Shown here: positions 2,940 through 5,556 of the stretch, piece after piece
Layout of the letters: the number at the start of each line of letters is the position of its first letter
Position numbering within the stretch: position 1 is the first letter of the stretch
Assembly: GCA_934149325.1 (NCBI GenBank)
Contig: CAKPEJ010000001.1
Location: 27,621 to 91,620 of the forward strand
Origin: an uncultured Bacilli bacterium
GTDB lineage: Bacteria > Bacillota_I > Bacilli_A > RF39 > UBA660
Length of the DNA stretch: 64,000 nucleotides
Direction of reading: 5' to 3'
Notes under the pieces: generated by a model
The model's input: only the letters and a program-made list of their open reading frames with translations
Told to the model about the DNA's origin: nothing
Database searches by the model: none
Translations under genes and position numbers: made by a program

Positions 2940-3767
2940 TTAGTTTGGAAATTTTATTTCGGATATGAAATGGTTTGATACTTGTTTTTCTTTAGGTGGT
3001 AATTTCATATAATCATTATAATAATGTTTTAGATAATTGTCATAATCTTTAGGTGCGTTAAATTTATATCCTTCAAATTCAACGCTGGTTAAACTATCGA
3101 AATATTTGCTTTCAATAATTTCTTTAAATAAGTAGACACCGGCATTTGAAACAACATATTTTGAATTTTTATTATTATATTTTTCAGATAATTTTTTTAA
3201 TTTATTTTTATAATATTTTATTGAGTGAATTTTTGAAAATAATTTTATTATGTTTAAGATAATCTTTTTATAAAGAATAGGTGAATAGCATTCATTATTA
3301 CACTTGTATGATAAACCAATTTTTAATATTAATATTCTTAAATAATTTATTTTTGCAATGAAAAGAATATTGCTTGTATTATCCATTGGAAAAATATCTA
3401 TCCATATACCTTGTTTTTCTTTATTCATATTATTTAAACTTTCAGAATATATAGAATTTTTTCTACGTATTTTTGCTGATAACATAACGTAATCATCATC
3501 AGTGTCCATATTTTGAAAATAATATTTATCTTTATTAAGTTCTTTTTTTTGTATTTTTATAAATTTATTATAATCAATTCGTGGCATTGTTACATCAATG
3601 TCGTCATCCCATGGAATAAAACCTTTATGTCTTATAGCTCCAATAAGTGTTCCACCAGCTAATGAATATTTTAAATTATTTTTTTTACATATTCTATCAA
3701 ATTCAATTAATATTTCTAGTTGTATTAATTGTAATTTTCTTAATTCTTCTTTTGTAAGTTTTTTCAT
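2940..3767 (-). CDS. LicD-family phosphotransferase (phosphocholine or polyol-phosphate transferase family)
   Basis: The stretch [31 protein letters not shown] is the LicD nucleotidyltransferase-fold signature. Start chosen at MKKLTKEE (3767), which has a GGAGAA RBS. The longer listed ORF (to 3788) would overlap the upstream gene. Confidence 0.75.
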   Translation of the reverse strand: [275 protein letters not shown]

Positions 3768-3768
3768 A

Positions 3769-4818
3769 TTATTTCTCCATAGTATCAATCATATTTTTAA
3801 ACATTTCTTTTAAATTTTTTGTTGGTGTAAAACCAATTTTTTTAATTTTTGAAGTATCTAAATTTATATGCAATGTTTTTGAATATCCAAATTTAGAAAT
3901 ATCTTCTTCTTCAATTTTTACATTAATATTTTTATTTAATTCTTTCATTAATACTGCCATTTCATAAATTGAGCAGTATGTATTTTCATTTGCAACATTA
4001 TATACTTCGTTTGAAATATCAGAAGTTAATGTAAGTAAAATTGCTTGAATGGCATCCATTGTATATAAATAATTCCTTTTTGTTTCACCCTTTGTATGTA
4101 ATATGATATCTTTATTTTCAATTACTGAACGTGCAAATTCCGCAAAAACACGACCATCATTATATTGAACTCCAGGGCCAAATGTTTGAGTAAGTCTCAA
4201 TATATTAAAATTAATGTTAAATTCTTTATTATAGCTTACACACAAATTTTCACACATTCTTTTGCTAATAGGGTAGCTATTTCTTACCTCCATAGTATTT
4301 AGATGTGCTGGGTAATTTTCATTAATTTTCTCATCAGTTTCTGGTCTTCCATATACTTCCATTGTAGATAGATAAATTATCTTTTGAATTGACTTTTCTT
4401 TGGCAAAATTTAATATATTTTTTGTACCAATAAGAATACTATCTATTGTTTCAACTGGATTTTCAGAGAAGTATTTACTAGATGTTTCTGAAGCTGCGTG
4501 AATAATGTAATCAATATTTTGTTCAATATCTATTTTGGATGTAATATCACCAACAATAAAATTAATTTTATAATTTTCATTTATTTGTTTATGGAAAATT
4601 TTTTGTGCTTTTTCTATATTTCTTACAAATGCAAAAATATTACAATTTATATTTTTTGTTTTGTTTAGATATAAAAGTGTGTTTATCATTAATGATCCAA
4701 TAAGACCAGTTGCACCTGTAATAAGAATATTTTTGTTTCTTAATTTTTCGAAATTAATCTTAGTATTTGCAGTAATGCTATTTAAATCATTTAAATATAT
4801 TTCATTATCAATCCACAT
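3769..4818 (-). CDS. NAD(P)-dependent epimerase/dehydratase-family protein (extended SDR)
   Basis: An N-terminal Rossmann motif ILITGATGLIGS is present. The 349-aa size matches extended SDR sugar-nucleotide enzymes. A GAGGTGA RBS lies upstream. Confidence 0.75.
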   Translation of the reverse strand: MWIDNEIYLNDLNSITANTKINFEKLRNKNILITGATGLIGSLMINTLLYLNKTKNINCNIFAFVRNIEKAQKIFHKQINENYKINFIVGDITSKIDIEQNIDYIIHAASETSSKYFSENPVETIDSILIGTKNILNFAKEKSIQKIIYLSTMEVYGRPETDEKINENYPAHLNTMEVRNSYPISKRMCENLCVSYNKEFNINFNILRLTQTFGPGVQYNDGRVFAEFARSVIENKDIILHTKGETKRNYLYTMDAIQAILLTLTSDISNEVYNVANENTYCSIYEMAVLMKELNKNINVKIEEEDISKFGYSKTLHINLDTSKIKKIGFTPTKNLKEMFKNMIDTMEK

Positions 4819-4827
4819 ATTATCACC

Positions 4828-5556
4828 TCATTCATCCATTCCATATAATTGTGCATCTTCTTTTGACTGAATAATTGCTCTCATAGTGTAATAATCATCT
4901 GGTGTAGTTATTTTTATATTTTCATATGGACCATCTGTCATATAAAGTTCATATCCAAAATATTGCATCATGGTGCATGAATCTATAAAATCATGTTTAT
5001 TCATTTTTCGTGCTTTATCATGAGAATCTAAGATGTCTTTCAAATAAAAACATTGTGGCGCTTTTGCAACTCTAGAATTTGCTCTGTCAGGGACTTCATT
5101 AATTCTATTATTTTCGTCAATTACAACTATTGTTTCTTTAACAATGCCAGAAGTTATGGAATTTCCTTTTTCTTTAACACATTTTATATTTTCATCTAAT
5201 AATTTAGTATTTATTAGGGGTCTAACTCCATCGTGTATTAAAACAATGTCATCATTATTTTTAGAAATTTCCTTTGCTGCAATAAGACCGTTGTAAATTG
5301 AATCTTGTCCAGTATTGCCTCCGGGAACTATATTTTTAACTTTTTTAATATTAAATTTTAATATCAATTTTTCTAGGTATTCTATCCAATCCTTCTTACA
5401 AGCTATTACTATAGCATCTATGTTATCACATTTTTCAAAATGTTCTAAAGTATAAATTATAATTGGTTTATTAAAAACCTCTAAAAATTGTTTTGGTTTA
5501 TCCTTTGTCTTCATCCTTGTTCCGGAACCACCGGCAAAAATAACTGCTATATTCAT
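4828..5556 (-). CDS. IspD/TarI-family nucleotidyltransferase (CDP-alcohol forming cytidylyltransferase, e.g. ribitol-5-phosphate cytidylyltransferase-like)
   Basis: The sequence MNIAVIFAGGSGTRM...KQF is the IspD/TarI signature. Start chosen at the internal Met, which has an AAGGAGG RBS; the listed ORF extends 9 codons upstream through that RBS. Confidence 0.75.
   Translation of the reverse strand: MNIAVIFAGGSGTRMKTKDKPKQFLEVFNKPIIIYTLEHFEKCDNIDAIVIACKKDWIEYLEKLILKFNIKKVKNIVPGGNTGQDSIYNGLIAAKEISKNNDDIVLIHDGVRPLINTKLLDENIKCVKEKGNSITSGIVKETIVVIDENNRINEVPDRANSRVAKAPQCFYLKDILDSHDKARKMNKHDFIDSCTMMQYFGYELYMTDGPYENIKITTPDDYYTMRAIIQSKEDAQLYGMDE

What the first reader, a model, noticed from the sequence alone, without database searches (positions are those of the whole stretch)
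2940..5556. Divergent cytidylyltransferase + SDR + LicD trio suggests CDP-polyol-phosphate (ribitol-phosphate-like) decoration of a glycan
An IspD/TarI-type cytidylyltransferase and an NAD(P)-dependent SDR are the two activities that, when fused in Bcs1-type enzymes, make CDP-ribitol. LicD-family enzymes (including eukaryotic fukutin/FKRP) transfer phosphocholine or ribitol-phosphate from CDP-activated donors. Their co-occurrence in one minus-strand operon, inside a locus with a GT2 and a Wzx flippase, predicts a polyol-phosphate or phosphocholine substituent on a surface polysaccharide or teichoic acid. The SDR is of the extended 349-aa type rather than the classical short type, so the substrate may differ from known ribitol systems.
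Basis: inference. Interest (0 to 1): 0.5.

Follow-up and report, generated by a model that had tools for sequence, protein, structure and literature searches.

The report
Sugar-alcohol phosphate glycan decoration operon
Three co-transcribed genes of an uncultured, very AT-rich gut bacterium most likely make a CDP-activated sugar alcohol and attach its phosphate to a cell-wall polysaccharide; the pathway type is already worked out in Campylobacter and pneumococcus, so this is an ordinary member that databases usually label too vaguely or wrongly.

Summary
Three tightly coupled minus-strand genes encode an IspD-family cytidylyltransferase (4828-5556), a 349-aa extended SDR (3769-4818) and a LicD-family phosphotransferase (2940-3767). 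They sit inside a polysaccharide locus.

The SDR is not an epimerase or dehydratase. Its best sequence and fold match is Campylobacter jejuni HS5.17, the NADPH-dependent CDP-6-D-fructose reductase that makes CDP-6-D-glucitol (PDB 8V4G/8V4H). Nearly all CDP, NADP(H) and alditol contact residues are conserved.

The cytidylyltransferase is closer to HS5.18, the fructose-6-P cytidylyltransferase (43% identity), than to TarI ribitol-5-P enzymes (31-33%).

The best-supported mechanism is therefore "activate, then reduce":
- A ketose phosphate plus CTP gives a CDP-ketose.
- The SDR reduces it to a CDP-alditol.
- LicD transfers the alditol phosphate onto a lipid-linked glycan.

The Bcs1-type reduce-first ribitol analogy is not the best model.

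The identity of the alditol (glucitol, mannitol, arabinitol or ribitol) is unresolved. The cytidylyltransferase-SDR pair is widespread, in at least 583 species genomes, mostly gut and rumen anaerobes.

Verdict: a new member of a known kind, of low to moderate interest.

The parts
4828..5556 (-). IspD-family cytidylyltransferase, 242 aa. Predicted ketose-phosphate cytidylyltransferase (CTP + ketose-P gives CDP-ketose + PPi). First gene of the operon.
   Evidence: Pfam IspD E 2.6e-43. 42-43% identity to C. jejuni HS5.18, the fructose-6-P cytidylyltransferase, against 31-33% to four TarI structures. 15 signature positions are shared with HS5.18 and with at least 80% of the SDR-paired cytidylyltransferases but differ from TarI, for example GGNTGQ against GGSDRN and KAPQ against QTPQ. 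Catalytic motifs AGGSGTRM, PKQF, HDGVRP and NIKITTP are present. Shine-Dalgarno AAAGGAGG lies before ATG 5556.
3769..4818 (-). Extended SDR, 349 aa. Predicted NADPH-dependent CDP-ketose reductase (CDP-alditol synthase).
   Evidence: Best PDB sequence hit is 8V4G/8V4H (HS5.17), E 2e-58, 38% identity. AF2 model has pLDDT 94, and the top four Foldseek hits are 8V4H/8V4G chains with TM 0.87-0.91. These HS5.17 residues are conserved: T98, S100, M139/E140, R164, Y167, K171, T195, Q196, R208, T227, R233, Y295, R56 and K60. An N-terminal helix precedes beta-1, as in HS5.17.
2940..3767 (-). LicD-family phosphotransferase, 275 aa, with no predicted membrane anchor noted. Predicted CDP-alditol:glycan alditol-phosphotransferase. 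Last gene of the operon.
   Evidence: Pfam LicD E 1.4e-50, full length. The motif [22 protein letters not shown] aligns with the FKRP catalytic-domain stretch [22 protein letters not shown]. The ATG lies 1 nt after the SDR stop. LicD homologues lie within 6 kb of the pair in 35 of 80 related loci.
5557..5753 (.). AT-rich divergent intergenic region between the operon and the plus-strand membrane-protein gene. It presumably holds the operon promoter.
   Evidence: Sequence read. The consensus promoter scan is uninformative at this base composition: 38 sites found against 34.9 expected.
1..1394 (+). Two GT2 glycosyltransferases: the C-terminal part of a 324-aa GT2 cut by the window start, and a 319-aa GT2 at 435-1394.
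   Evidence: Pfam Glycos_transf_2 E 8e-37. The contig gene calls show the upstream 324-aa GT2 overlapping by 4 nt.
1407..2924 (+). 505-aa polytopic membrane protein, a Wzx-like flippase candidate. It is convergent with LicD, with a 15-nt spacer.
   Evidence: Weak Polysacc_synt match (E 5.7e-5, below cut-off) and weak WZX_like match. Spacer read.
5754..7205 (+). 476-483-aa polytopic membrane protein, either a Wzy-like polymerase or a GT-C-like transferase. Unresolved.
   Evidence: Only weak hits: EpsG E 0.0027 and the LA_3751/LA_3752 putative glycosyltransferase family E 5.7e-5.
7320..8252 (+). GT2 of the polyprenyl-phosphate-sugar synthase type (AglJ/GtrB/DPM1-like).
   Evidence: NCBIfam TIGR04182 AglJ E 3.9e-71 (240 bits, below the 325 cut-off). 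Dolichyl-phosphate hexose transferase E 4e-26.

Best explanation
The three genes form one operon that supplies and installs an alditol-phosphate (sugar-alcohol phosphate) residue on a cell-wall or surface polysaccharide.

Step 1 (inferred from homology): the IspD-family enzyme condenses CTP with a ketose phosphate, either fructose-6-P or a pentulose-5-P, to give a CDP-ketose.

Step 2 (best-supported step): the extended SDR binds the CDP-linked open-chain ketose and reduces its C2 carbonyl with NADPH, using the Tyr182/Lys186 pair, to give a CDP-alditol. Candidates are CDP-6-D-glucitol, CDP-D-mannitol, CDP-D-arabinitol or possibly CDP-ribitol.

Step 3 (inferred from family and gene linkage): the soluble LicD-family enzyme transfers alditol-phosphate from the CDP-alditol onto a hydroxyl of a lipid-linked oligosaccharide on the cytoplasmic face. 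This releases CMP and creates a phosphodiester.

Step 4 (inferred from context only): the neighbouring GT2s, acyltransferase, Wzx-like flippase and polytopic membrane proteins build, flip and attach this unit. The locus looks like the side-chain part of a rhamnose-rich cell-wall polysaccharide cluster. On the parent contig it has a GacI/PpgS-like GT2 with a GacJ-like DUF2304 protein, a DUF2142 protein and a WsaF-like rhamnosyltransferase.

My rough split for the alditol is about 50% hexitol (glucitol or mannitol), about 35% pentitol (arabinitol, ribitol or xylitol) and about 15% other.
For: SDR:
- The top solved-structure hit is HS5.17, at E 2e-58 and 201 bits. The next family, UDP-xylose synthase, reaches 117 bits.
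- 38% identity over 330 residues.
- AF2 model pLDDT is 94, and the four best Foldseek PDB hits are the 8V4H/8V4G chains (E 2e-31, TM 0.87-0.91). UXS follows at 1.7e-23.
- Conserved pyrophosphate and cytosine contacts: S100, R164, R233, T227, Y295.
- Conserved alditol contacts: E140, T195, Q196, R208.
- Conserved 2'-phosphate contacts: R56, K60, R208.
- Conserved catalytic pair Y167/K171, and Met-Glu in place of the dehydratase Asp-Glu/Lys pair.
- These residues are conserved in the window protein and invariant or nearly invariant in 80 homologues.

Cytidylyltransferase:
- 42-43% identity to HS5.18, which accepts only fructose-6-P and CTP. Identity to TarI enzymes is 31-33%.
- 15 clade signatures are shared with HS5.18.

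Linkage:
- The cytidylyltransferase is directly adjacent to the SDR in 54 of 80 related loci.
- LicD is within 6 kb in 35 of 80 and directly adjacent in 17.
- In the window the three genes are translationally coupled.

LicD:
- Full-length Pfam match.
- It shares the acidic motif with the FKRP ribitol-phosphate transferase.
- Reviews associate LicD proteins with ribitol-P and glycerol-P addition in enterococcal and lactococcal cell-wall polysaccharides (PMC8327497 and PMC9574508).

Context:
-, plus the GacI/J/K/L literature.
Against: - There is no biochemical or structural-chemistry evidence for this organism, which is uncultured. Everything rests on homology of about 40% identity to the only characterised pair I could compare directly.
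- NCBIfam's 'D-ribitol-5-phosphate cytidylyltransferase' subfamily model NF001183 scores the window cytidylyltransferase above its cut-off (179 against 166 bits). HS5.18 scores below it (123 bits). A ribitol-5-P substrate is therefore not excluded by sequence.
- The window pair sits in a large gut and rumen clade for which both HS5 proteins are outgroups.
- The ligand-contact residues are invariant across the whole family, so they cannot tell which alditol is made.
- I could not obtain the sequences of Mnp1/Mnp2 or AbpA/AbpB.
- LicD is absent from more than half of the related loci, so the pair does not strictly need a LicD partner.
- LicD specificity for the donor (CDP-alditol, CDP-glycerol or CDP-choline) cannot be read from sequence.
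- The acceptor glycan and the role of the flanking membrane proteins are pure context inference.
Confidence: 0.75

Rival explanations
1. This is a classical CDP-ribitol system. The cytidylyltransferase would be a TarI-type ribitol-5-phosphate cytidylyltransferase. Ribitol-5-P would be made beforehand by reduction of ribulose-5-P, either by this SDR or by an enzyme elsewhere. LicD would then add ribitol-phosphate, as fukutin/FKRP and the enterococcal EPA enzymes are thought to do.
For: - The NCBIfam ribitol-5-P cytidylyltransferase subfamily model is passed (179 bits against a cut-off of 166).
- The best solved-structure hits of the cytidylyltransferase are TarI enzymes (E 1.8e-36). HS5.18 has no structure, so it could not appear in that search.
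- LicD proteins are linked to ribitol-P transfer in E. faecalis and in FKRP.
Against: - The cytidylyltransferase is 10 percentage points closer to the ketose-phosphate enzyme HS5.18 than to any TarI, and it carries the HS5.18-clade signatures.
- The partner reductase is neither a TarJ-type zinc alcohol dehydrogenase nor a Bcs1-type classical SDR.
- It is an extended SDR that keeps every CDP-binding residue of HS5.17. This implies a CDP-linked substrate rather than a free sugar phosphate.
- CDP-ribitol could still be the product if the substrate were CDP-ribulose. That would be the best explanation's mechanism, not this one.
Confidence: 0.1
2. LicD is a phosphocholine transferase, the founding activity of the family, and uses CDP-choline made elsewhere. 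The cytidylyltransferase-SDR pair would serve a different transferase, so the trio would not be one functional unit.
For: - The LicD family is named for phosphocholine transfer.
- The nearest NCBIfam model is the Mycoplasma fermentans cholinephosphotransferase Mf1 (E 4e-26).
- More than half of the related cytidylyltransferase-SDR loci lack a nearby LicD.
Against: - The Mf1 match reaches 92 bits against a cut-off of 225.
- No choline kinase, choline transporter or LicC-type cytidylyltransferase was found in any of the about 60 ORFs scanned across the 64 kb window.
- The LicD start codon lies 1 nt after the SDR stop.
- LicD is directly adjacent to the pair in 17 unrelated genomes.
Confidence: 0.05
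3. The SDR is an ordinary nucleotide-sugar epimerase, dehydratase or decarboxylase, as its database names say. It would supply a modified sugar to the neighbouring GT2s, and the cytidylyltransferase would act independently.
For: - Sources name homologues 'NAD-dependent epimerase/dehydratase' or 'nucleotide sugar dehydratase'.
- Pfam and NCBIfam give only generic hits, and none reaches an equivalog cut-off.
- UDP-xylose synthase is the second-best structural family.
Against: - HS5.17 itself was deposited as 'putative nucleotide sugar dehydratase' and gets the same generic NCBIfam hits. The names therefore carry no weight.
- The dehydratase acid/base pair is replaced by Met-Glu, exactly as in HS5.17.
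- The CDP contacts are conserved.
- An IspD-type cytidylyltransferase is directly adjacent in 54 of 80 loci. Nothing links an IspD-type enzyme to UDP- or dTDP-sugar metabolism.
Confidence: 0.04

Closest known systems
C. jejuni HS:5 HS5.18 / HS5.17 (fructose-6-P cytidylyltransferase + CDP-6-D-fructose reductase, giving CDP-6-D-glucitol; PDB 8V4G/8V4H; PMC10918830)
   Same: - The same two-gene module of an IspD-family cytidylyltransferase directly upstream of an extended SDR.
- 42-43% and 38% identity.
- The same fold, including the N-terminal helix.
- Conserved CDP, NADP(H) and alditol contact residues, the YxxxK motif and the Met-Glu pair.
   Different: - Both HS5 proteins are outgroups to the large gut and rumen clade that holds the window pair.
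- Three contact residues differ: D212 is E, F226 is H and N34 is T.
- The Campylobacter locus is a Gram-negative group-2-type capsule, and the candidate transferases named in the paper are not stated to be LicD.
- The product here is unproven.
S. pneumoniae Mnp1/Mnp2 (serotype 35A, CDP-D-mannitol) and AbpA/AbpB (serotype 17F/24F, CDP-D-arabinitol)
   Same: - The same logic in a Gram-positive Wzx/Wzy polysaccharide locus: cytidylylate a ketose phosphate (fructose-6-P or xylulose-5-P), then reduce the CDP-ketose with a PF01370 enzyme. This is as summarised in PMC10918830, with the references listed in PMC10118250.
- Mnp2 is only 30% identical to HS5.17 yet uses the same substrate. This shows that product stereochemistry is not predictable at this level of divergence.
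   Different: - I could not obtain these sequences, so relatedness to the window pair is untested.
- The original papers (J Bacteriol 2012, PMC3318453) are not held in the library.
Bcs1/Acs1 (H. influenzae) and TarI/TarJ (S. aureus, S. pneumoniae, B. subtilis) CDP-ribitol synthases
   Same: An IspD-family cytidylyltransferase and an NADPH reductase produce a CDP-alditol for a phosphodiester-containing surface polymer.
   Different: - The order of steps is reversed: reduction of ribulose-5-P comes before cytidylyl transfer (cited in PMC10918830).
- The reductases are a classical short SDR domain or a zinc alcohol dehydrogenase, not a nucleotide-sugar-type extended SDR.
- The window cytidylyltransferase is only 31-33% identical to TarI.
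LicD family: pneumococcal LicD1/2 (phosphocholine), fukutin/FKRP (ribitol-5-P from CDP-ribitol), and LicD proteins of E. faecalis EPA and L. lactis CWPS loci
   Same: - Full-length PF04991 match.
- A conserved GG(T/S)L(I/L)GA.RH...IPWD.D(I/V)D motif shared with the FKRP catalytic domain.
- A CDP-alcohol donor logic.
- Location in a Wzx-type cell-wall polysaccharide locus.
   Different: - Only a local 31-residue match to FKRP (E 8e-4).
- Below the cut-off for the Mf1 cholinephosphotransferase equivalog.
- Donor and acceptor are untested.
Rhamnose-rich cell-wall polysaccharide side-chain machinery (GacI/GacJ/GacK/GacL of S. pyogenes; WpsA/B/G/J of L. lactis; S. thermophilus Rgp)
   Same: On the parent contig the locus carries the following:
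- a PpgS/GacI-like GT2 followed by a DUF2304 (GacJ-family) protein;
- a DUF2142 polytopic protein;
- a Wzx-like protein;
- several GT2s;
- a WsaF-like rhamnosyltransferase;
- a double GT1.

An LCP ligase is encoded in the window.
   Different: - No rmlABCD, rgpA-F or ABC-exporter genes were seen in the roughly 10 kb of flank that could be read.
- The backbone type is a guess.
- The organism is an uncultured 22% GC Bacillota, not a lactic acid bacterium.

Membership tests
CDP-ketose reductase / CDP-alditol synthase (HS5.17, Mnp2, AbpB type extended SDR) | Extended-SDR fold with a Gly-rich dinucleotide motif and a catalytic YxxxK | tested here: met
   TGATGLIGS at residues 34-42 and Y182-P-I-S-K186. 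AF2 model pLDDT 94 with a Rossmann core.
CDP-ketose reductase / CDP-alditol synthase (HS5.17, Mnp2, AbpB type extended SDR) | Closest solved relative is HS5.17 rather than an epimerase, dehydratase or decarboxylase | tested here: met
   phmmer E 2e-58 against 1.4e-32 for UXS. Foldseek top four are 8V4H/8V4G at E 2e-31 and TM 0.87-0.91, with UXS next at 1.7e-23.
CDP-ketose reductase / CDP-alditol synthase (HS5.17, Mnp2, AbpB type extended SDR) | CDP-binding residues of HS5.17 (S100, R164, D212, T227, R233, Y295) | tested here: met
   Five of six are identical, and D212 is replaced conservatively by Glu. In 80 homologues S, R, T and R are invariant, Y is Y or F, and D212 is mostly E.
CDP-ketose reductase / CDP-alditol synthase (HS5.17, Mnp2, AbpB type extended SDR) | Open-chain alditol contacts (E140, T195, Q196, R208), and Met-Glu in place of the 4,6-dehydratase Asp-Glu/Lys pair | tested here: met
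   M153/E154, T210, Q211 and R223 are conserved.
CDP-ketose reductase / CDP-alditol synthase (HS5.17, Mnp2, AbpB type extended SDR) | N-terminal helix of about 20 residues preceding the first beta-strand | tested here: met
   The model shows a helix at 6-16 (and 23-26) before strand 30-34. PMC10918830 describes Met1-Ile20 as a helix, with the first strand at Lys27.
CDP-ketose reductase / CDP-alditol synthase (HS5.17, Mnp2, AbpB type extended SDR) | Encoded next to an IspD-family cytidylyltransferase | tested here: met
   9-nt gap in the window. Directly adjacent in 54 of 80 related loci.
CDP-ketose reductase / CDP-alditol synthase (HS5.17, Mnp2, AbpB type extended SDR) | NADPH-dependent reduction of a CDP-ketose to a defined CDP-alditol | not testable with these tools
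   This needs an enzyme assay and NMR of the product. Which alditol is made cannot be read from the conserved residues.
Ketose-phosphate cytidylyltransferase (HS5.18, Mnp1, AbpA type, IspD family) | IspD-family fold and catalytic motifs (Gly-rich loop, PKQF lysine, HDxVRP, NIK(I/V)TTP lysine) | tested here: met
   Pfam IspD E 2.6e-43. The motifs are listed.
Ketose-phosphate cytidylyltransferase (HS5.18, Mnp1, AbpA type, IspD family) | Closer to a proven ketose-phosphate enzyme than to alditol-phosphate (TarI) enzymes | tested here: met
   42.7% identity to HS5.18 against 31.4-33.0% to four TarI structures. 15 shared clade-specific positions.
Ketose-phosphate cytidylyltransferase (HS5.18, Mnp1, AbpA type, IspD family) | Substrate is a ketose phosphate, not an alditol phosphate | tested here: inconclusive
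   This is inferred only from the partner SDR and from similarity. The NCBIfam ribitol-5-P cytidylyltransferase subfamily model is passed by the window protein (179 against 166 bits) but not by HS5.18 (123 bits).
TarI/Bcs1-type CDP-ribitol synthase | Partner reductase is a TarJ-type zinc alcohol dehydrogenase or a Bcs1 classical-SDR domain acting on ribulose-5-P before cytidylyl transfer | tested here: not met
   The partner is an extended SDR of the nucleotide-sugar type with conserved CDP contacts. No alcohol-dehydrogenase-type gene is in the locus.
LicD family (PF04991) | Full-length match to the LicD profile above the gathering score | tested here: met
   172.9 bits against a cut-off of 22.6, profile positions 1-226 of 227.
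LicD family (PF04991) | Conserved acidic (D.D.D) motif of the nucleotidyltransferase-like catalytic domain, shared with FKRP | tested here: met
   IPWDDDIDV aligns with FKRP [9 protein letters not shown].
LicD family (PF04991) | Transfers an alcohol-phosphate from a CDP-alcohol donor to a glycan acceptor | not testable with these tools
   Donor and acceptor both need an in vitro assay. It is not an equivalog of the Mf1 cholinephosphotransferase (92 against 225 bits).
Lic1-type phosphocholine pathway | licA (choline kinase), licB (transporter) and licC (CTP:phosphocholine cytidylyltransferase) accompany licD | tested here: not met
   None was found among the ORFs of the 64 kb window scanned with Pfam. 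The rest of the genome was not seen.

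The most novel reading that the evidence does not exclude
The window pair belongs to a large gut and rumen clade in which the cytidylyltransferases are 50-75% and the SDRs 46-62% identical to the window proteins. These are only about 40% identical to the one characterised pair I could compare.

This clade could make a CDP-alditol that has not been described for this enzyme type. Examples are CDP-ribitol made through CDP-ribulose rather than through ribitol-5-P, CDP-xylitol, a tagatose-derived hexitol or a heptitol.

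In this organism a single CDP-alditol pool could feed two different phosphotransferases. One is the LicD of this locus. The other is the TagF-like enzyme (32121-33323) of the separate capsule locus 27 kb away, which has no CDP-glycerol synthase of its own in the window.
Probability: 0.15. Interest if true: 0.45.

Novelty: new member of a known kind. Interest (0 to 1): 0.22.

Why it matters
It matters mainly for annotation and for glycobiology of the gut microbiota.

Annotation:
- Public sources name the SDR only generically, as an 'epimerase/dehydratase' or 'dehydratase'.
- The cytidylyltransferase passes NCBI's ribitol-5-phosphate cytidylyltransferase model.
- The likely real chemistry, a CDP-ketose reduced to a CDP-alditol, is therefore hidden.

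Spread:
- The Campylobacter paper predicted about 400 such pairs in more than 200 organisms.
- Here the SDR family gave 6720 protein clusters at E <= 1e-20.
- It gave at least 583 species genomes, dominated by rumen and gut Clostridia, Bacilli and Fibrobacter, with some Bacteroidota.

Alditol-phosphate-bearing surface glycans may therefore be common in gut anaerobes. Such groups are charged, immunogenic epitopes, and they act as phage receptors in better-studied bacteria.

Nothing here overturns current understanding.

Tried and rejected
1. Naming the alditol.
- The original AbpA/AbpB paper (PMC3318453) is not held.
- Four literature searches gave no sequences for Mnp2 or AbpB.
- No phylogeny with all three characterised pairs could therefore be built.
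- The HS5.17 ligand-contact residues are invariant across 80 homologues, so they do not discriminate.

2. Co-variation of cytidylyltransferase and SDR as a hint of specificity classes.
- Distances correlate only moderately (Spearman 0.40).
- Both families collapse into one big cluster with the HS5 proteins as outgroups.
- No clear subclasses emerged.

3. The NCBIfam label 'ribitol-5-P cytidylyltransferase'.
- I considered it and judged it not decisive. It is a subfamily model, HS5.18 scores 123 bits on it, and the window protein is closer to HS5.18 than to any TarI.

4. Promoter and terminator scan.
- It found 38 promoter-like sites against 34.9 expected, and no terminators.
- It is uninformative at 22% GC.

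5. A TagF-like transferase as the alternative partner in related loci without LicD.
- Only 6 of 80 gave weak tblastn hits.
- What replaces LicD in those loci remains open.

6. tRNA scan of the window: none found. I did not otherwise try to identify the organism. The closest species-genome locus is a sheep-rumen 'Bacilli bacterium' MAG, at 62% (SDR) and 73% (cytidylyltransferase) identity.

7. The 476-483-aa membrane protein could not be assigned to Wzy or to GT-C from the weak profile hits. I ran no further search on it.

Full report
OBSERVATION

The window is very AT-rich (about 19-27% GC), and almost all of its genes lie on the plus strand.

Between 2940 and 5583 there are three consecutive minus-strand ORFs of 251, 349 and 282 codons.
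- The first matches Pfam IspD (E 2.6e-43).
- The second matches the NAD-dependent epimerase/dehydratase family of extended SDRs (E 1.2e-40).
- The third matches LicD (E 1.4e-50, profile positions 1-226 of 227).

The real starts are ATG 5556 for the cytidylyltransferase and ATG 3767 for LicD.
- AAAGGAGG lies 7 nt upstream of ATG 5556.
- GGAG lies upstream of ATG 3767.
- These are the starts used by gene callers on six metagenome contigs that carry the identical SDR.

The SDR start lies 9 nt after the cytidylyltransferase stop, with a Shine-Dalgarno sequence overlapping that stop. The LicD start lies 1 nt after the SDR stop. The trio is therefore one translationally coupled operon in the order cytidylyltransferase, SDR, LicD.

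The flanking GT2 (435-1394) is solid. The 'Wzx' (1407-2924) is a 505-aa polytopic protein with only sub-threshold flippase matches.

WHAT THE SDR IS

Against all PDB sequences the best hits by a wide margin are 8V4G and 8V4H (E 2e-58, 201 bits). The next family, UDP-xylose synthase, reaches 117 bits, and epimerases and 4,6-dehydratases score 75 bits or less.

8V4G/8V4H is HS5.17 of Campylobacter jejuni serotype HS:5. It was deposited as 'putative nucleotide sugar dehydratase'. [quoted passage not shown]

Identity to the window protein is 38% over 330 residues.

I mapped the paper's ligand contacts onto the HMMER alignment. Conserved residues:
- T98, S100, R164, R233, T227 and Y295 (pyrophosphate, ribose and cytosine contacts).
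- E140, T195, Q196 and R208 (glucitol hydroxyl contacts).
- R56, K60 and R208 (2'-phosphate of NADPH).
- Y167 and K171 (catalytic pair).
- The Met139-Glu140 pair, which replaces the acid/base pair of 4,6-dehydratases.

Three contacts differ: D212 is Glu, F226 is His and N34 is Thr.

In 80 homologues from species genomes these positions are invariant or nearly so.

An AlphaFold2 model built from 30 homologues has mean pLDDT 94. It shows the unusual N-terminal helix before the first beta-strand, which the paper describes for HS5.17. Foldseek against the PDB returns the four chains of 8V4H/8V4G as the top four hits (E 2e-31 to 1e-28, TM 0.83-0.91). UDP-xylose synthase follows at 1.7e-23.

The SDR is therefore best read as a CDP-ketose reductase, not as an epimerase, dehydratase or decarboxylase.

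WHAT THE CYTIDYLYLTRANSFERASE IS

It is an IspD-family enzyme, not a CMP-sugar synthase. Solved structures give TarI ribitol-5-phosphate cytidylyltransferases as the best hits, but the partner of HS5.17 has no structure.

I took the HS5.18 sequence from the paper's supplement. The window enzyme is 42-43% identical to HS5.18, against 31-33% to four TarI enzymes.

HS5.18 accepts only fructose-6-P with CTP. It does not accept glucitol-6-P, glucose-6-P or the 1-phosphates.

Fifteen alignment positions are shared by the window enzyme, HS5.18 and at least 80% of the 66 cytidylyltransferases that sit next to an HS5.17-like SDR, yet differ from residues shared by at least three of the four TarI structures. 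Examples are GGNTGQ against GGSDRN and KAPQ against QTPQ.

One caveat applies. NCBIfam's 'D-ribitol-5-phosphate cytidylyltransferase' subfamily model is passed by the window protein (179 bits, cut-off 166) but not by HS5.18 (123 bits). An alditol-phosphate substrate is therefore not excluded by sequence alone. The argument for a ketose phosphate rests mainly on the partner SDR keeping all its CDP contacts.

LicD AND LINKAGE

The LicD match is full length. Its [22 protein letters not shown] segment aligns with the catalytic-domain segment of human FKRP, a CDP-ribitol:ribitol-phosphate transferase. It is well below the cut-off of the only LicD-type equivalog model, the Mycoplasma cholinephosphotransferase Mf1.

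Reviews of Gram-positive cell-wall polysaccharides associate LicD proteins with ribitol-P addition in E. faecalis EPA and with glycerol-P addition in L. lactis. Both are Wzx-dependent side-chain pathways.

No choline kinase, choline transporter, LicC or TagD was found in any ORF scanned across the 64 kb.

A pattern scan of one genome per species found at least 583 genomes encoding a relative of the SDR. In the 80 best loci:
- An IspD-like gene lies within 6 kb in 68 and directly adjacent in 54.
- A LicD gene lies within 6 kb in 35 and directly adjacent in 17, always upstream on the same strand. The cytidylyltransferase-SDR-LicD order in the window is therefore a less common arrangement.

The cytidylyltransferase-SDR pair is thus an obligate module. 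LicD is its most frequent partner that I could detect, but not an exclusive one.

CONTEXT

Contigs from human gut metagenomes, including Hadza samples, carry the identical locus and extend it to the left of the window. In order they encode:
- a WsaF-like rhamnosyltransferase;
- a GT2;
- a 726-aa double GT1;
- a 644-aa DUF2142 polytopic protein;
- a 239-aa GT2 whose best NCBIfam match is the polyprenyl-phospho-GalNAc synthase PpgS;
- a 108-aa DUF2304 protein;
- a GT2;
- an Acyl_transf_3 protein;
- two GT2s;
- the Wzx-like protein;
- the divergent trio;
- a 476-aa polytopic protein;
- an AglJ/GtrB-like GT2.

DUF2304 is the family of GacJ, the small partner that activates GacI, the GlcNAc-P-undecaprenol synthase. 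The GacI/J-Wzx-GT-C arrangement decorates rhamnan in streptococci and lactococci.

The window also encodes an LCP ligase, so the organism has wall-anchored polymers.

I therefore propose, by inference only, that the alditol phosphate is added in the cytoplasm to a lipid-linked side-chain unit. That unit would later be flipped and attached to a cell-wall polysaccharide.

WHICH ALDITOL

This is not resolved.

Published members of this pathway type make CDP-6-D-glucitol (HS5.17/18), CDP-D-mannitol (Mnp1/2 of pneumococcal 35A) and CDP-D-arabinitol (AbpA/B of 17F/24F).

Mnp2 is only 30% identical to HS5.17 although both reduce CDP-fructose. Product stereochemistry cannot be inferred at about 40% identity.

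Both HS5 proteins are outgroups to the single large cluster that holds the window pair. I could not obtain the pneumococcal sequences.

My estimate is about 50% hexitol, about 35% pentitol and about 15% something else.

COMPARISON, NOVELTY, VERDICT

The trio works like the known 'activate then reduce' CDP-alditol pathways joined to a LicD-type phosphotransferase.
- The SDR meets every sequence and structure criterion for the HS5.17-type family that I could test.
- The cytidylyltransferase meets the family criteria and groups with the ketose-phosphate enzyme.
- Activities and product are untestable here.
- It fails the defining feature of the Bcs1/TarIJ type, which is the kind of reductase and therefore the order of steps.

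This is a new member of a known kind in an uncultured gut Bacillota.

Its main value is corrective. Annotation pipelines hide this chemistry, and the module is far more widespread in gut and rumen anaerobes than the roughly 200 organisms estimated in 2024.

Interest is low to moderate.

Noticed in passing
window 30574-41593 (+): A second, complete Wzy-type capsule/EPS locus. It encodes a Bac_transf priming transferase, a GT2, a TagF-like CDP-glycerol-type phosphotransferase (32121-33323), a GT2, a GT11 fucosyltransferase-like protein, EpsG/Wzy, Wzx, an LCP ligase, a Wzz-tyrosine-kinase fusion and a CpsB phosphatase. No TagD or other CDP-alcohol synthase lies in the window apart from the trio. 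The TagF-like enzyme might therefore use the same CDP-alditol, or tagD lies elsewhere in the genome.
   Followed up: partly
L087 1-10000 (the parent contig left of the window start): The locus that holds the trio continues for at least 10 kb to the left. It encodes a WsaF-like rhamnosyltransferase, a GT2, a 726-aa double GT1, a DUF2142 protein (644 aa), a PpgS/GacI-like GT2 with a DUF2304 (GacJ-family) protein, a GT2 and an Acyl_transf_3 protein. This resembles the rhamnose-rich cell-wall polysaccharide loci of streptococci and lactococci.
   Followed up: partly
window 5754-7205 (+) and 7320-8252 (+): A 476-483-aa polytopic membrane protein with only weak EpsG and LA_3751-family hits lies next to an AglJ/GtrB-like polyprenyl-phosphate-sugar synthase (TIGR04182, E 3.9e-71). 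This may be a lipid-carrier-dependent extracytoplasmic glycosylation pair. The membrane protein could equally be the polymerase.
   Followed up: no
window 2001-6000: The trio is one of very few minus-strand gene groups in the window. Local GC skew drops from about +0.2 to +0.4 down to -0.06, and GC rises slightly to 0.25 against 0.19-0.21 in the left flank. This is compatible with an inverted or acquired cassette within the variable part of the locus.
   Followed up: no
window 4828-5556 and related loci L007-L086: The cytidylyltransferase passes NCBIfam's 'D-ribitol-5-phosphate cytidylyltransferase' subfamily cut-off although it pairs with a CDP-ketose reductase. Sources name the SDR homologues 'epimerase/dehydratase' or 'dehydratase'. 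This is probably a systematic annotation problem across hundreds of genomes.
   Followed up: partly
window 26249-26809 (+): Ribosomal protein L20 (107-aa domain) carries a C-terminal extension of about 80 aa that ends in a Rho_N-like domain (E 3.4e-8). This is an unusual fusion.
   Followed up: no
window 25636-26022 (+): The IF3 ORF as listed starts inside the N-terminal domain: it matches profile positions 46-70 of 70 only. The real infC start must lie upstream at a non-ATG/GTG/TTG codon. An unusual start codon is known from other bacteria for infC (from my own knowledge).
   Followed up: no
window 20260-20931 (+) and 23438-24163 (+): A 223-aa protein has collagen-like Gly-X-Y repeats (E 2.3e-9). 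A LysM protein has a weak SpoVID-N-like region. These hint at a spore- or exosporium-related heritage in this low-GC Bacillota.
   Followed up: no
window 50220-51509 (-): A third MOP-superfamily flippase (Polysacc_synt E 6.8e-32, with MatE and MurJ-like regions) lies on the minus strand, separate from both polysaccharide loci.
   Followed up: no
window 8323-9246 (+) and 11647-12696 (+): Two conserved proteins (307 and 349 aa) flank the end of the polysaccharide locus, and neither has a Pfam match. The first has N-terminal membrane helices and a weak hit to a 'mobilome CxxC' family (E 7e-4).
   Followed up: no
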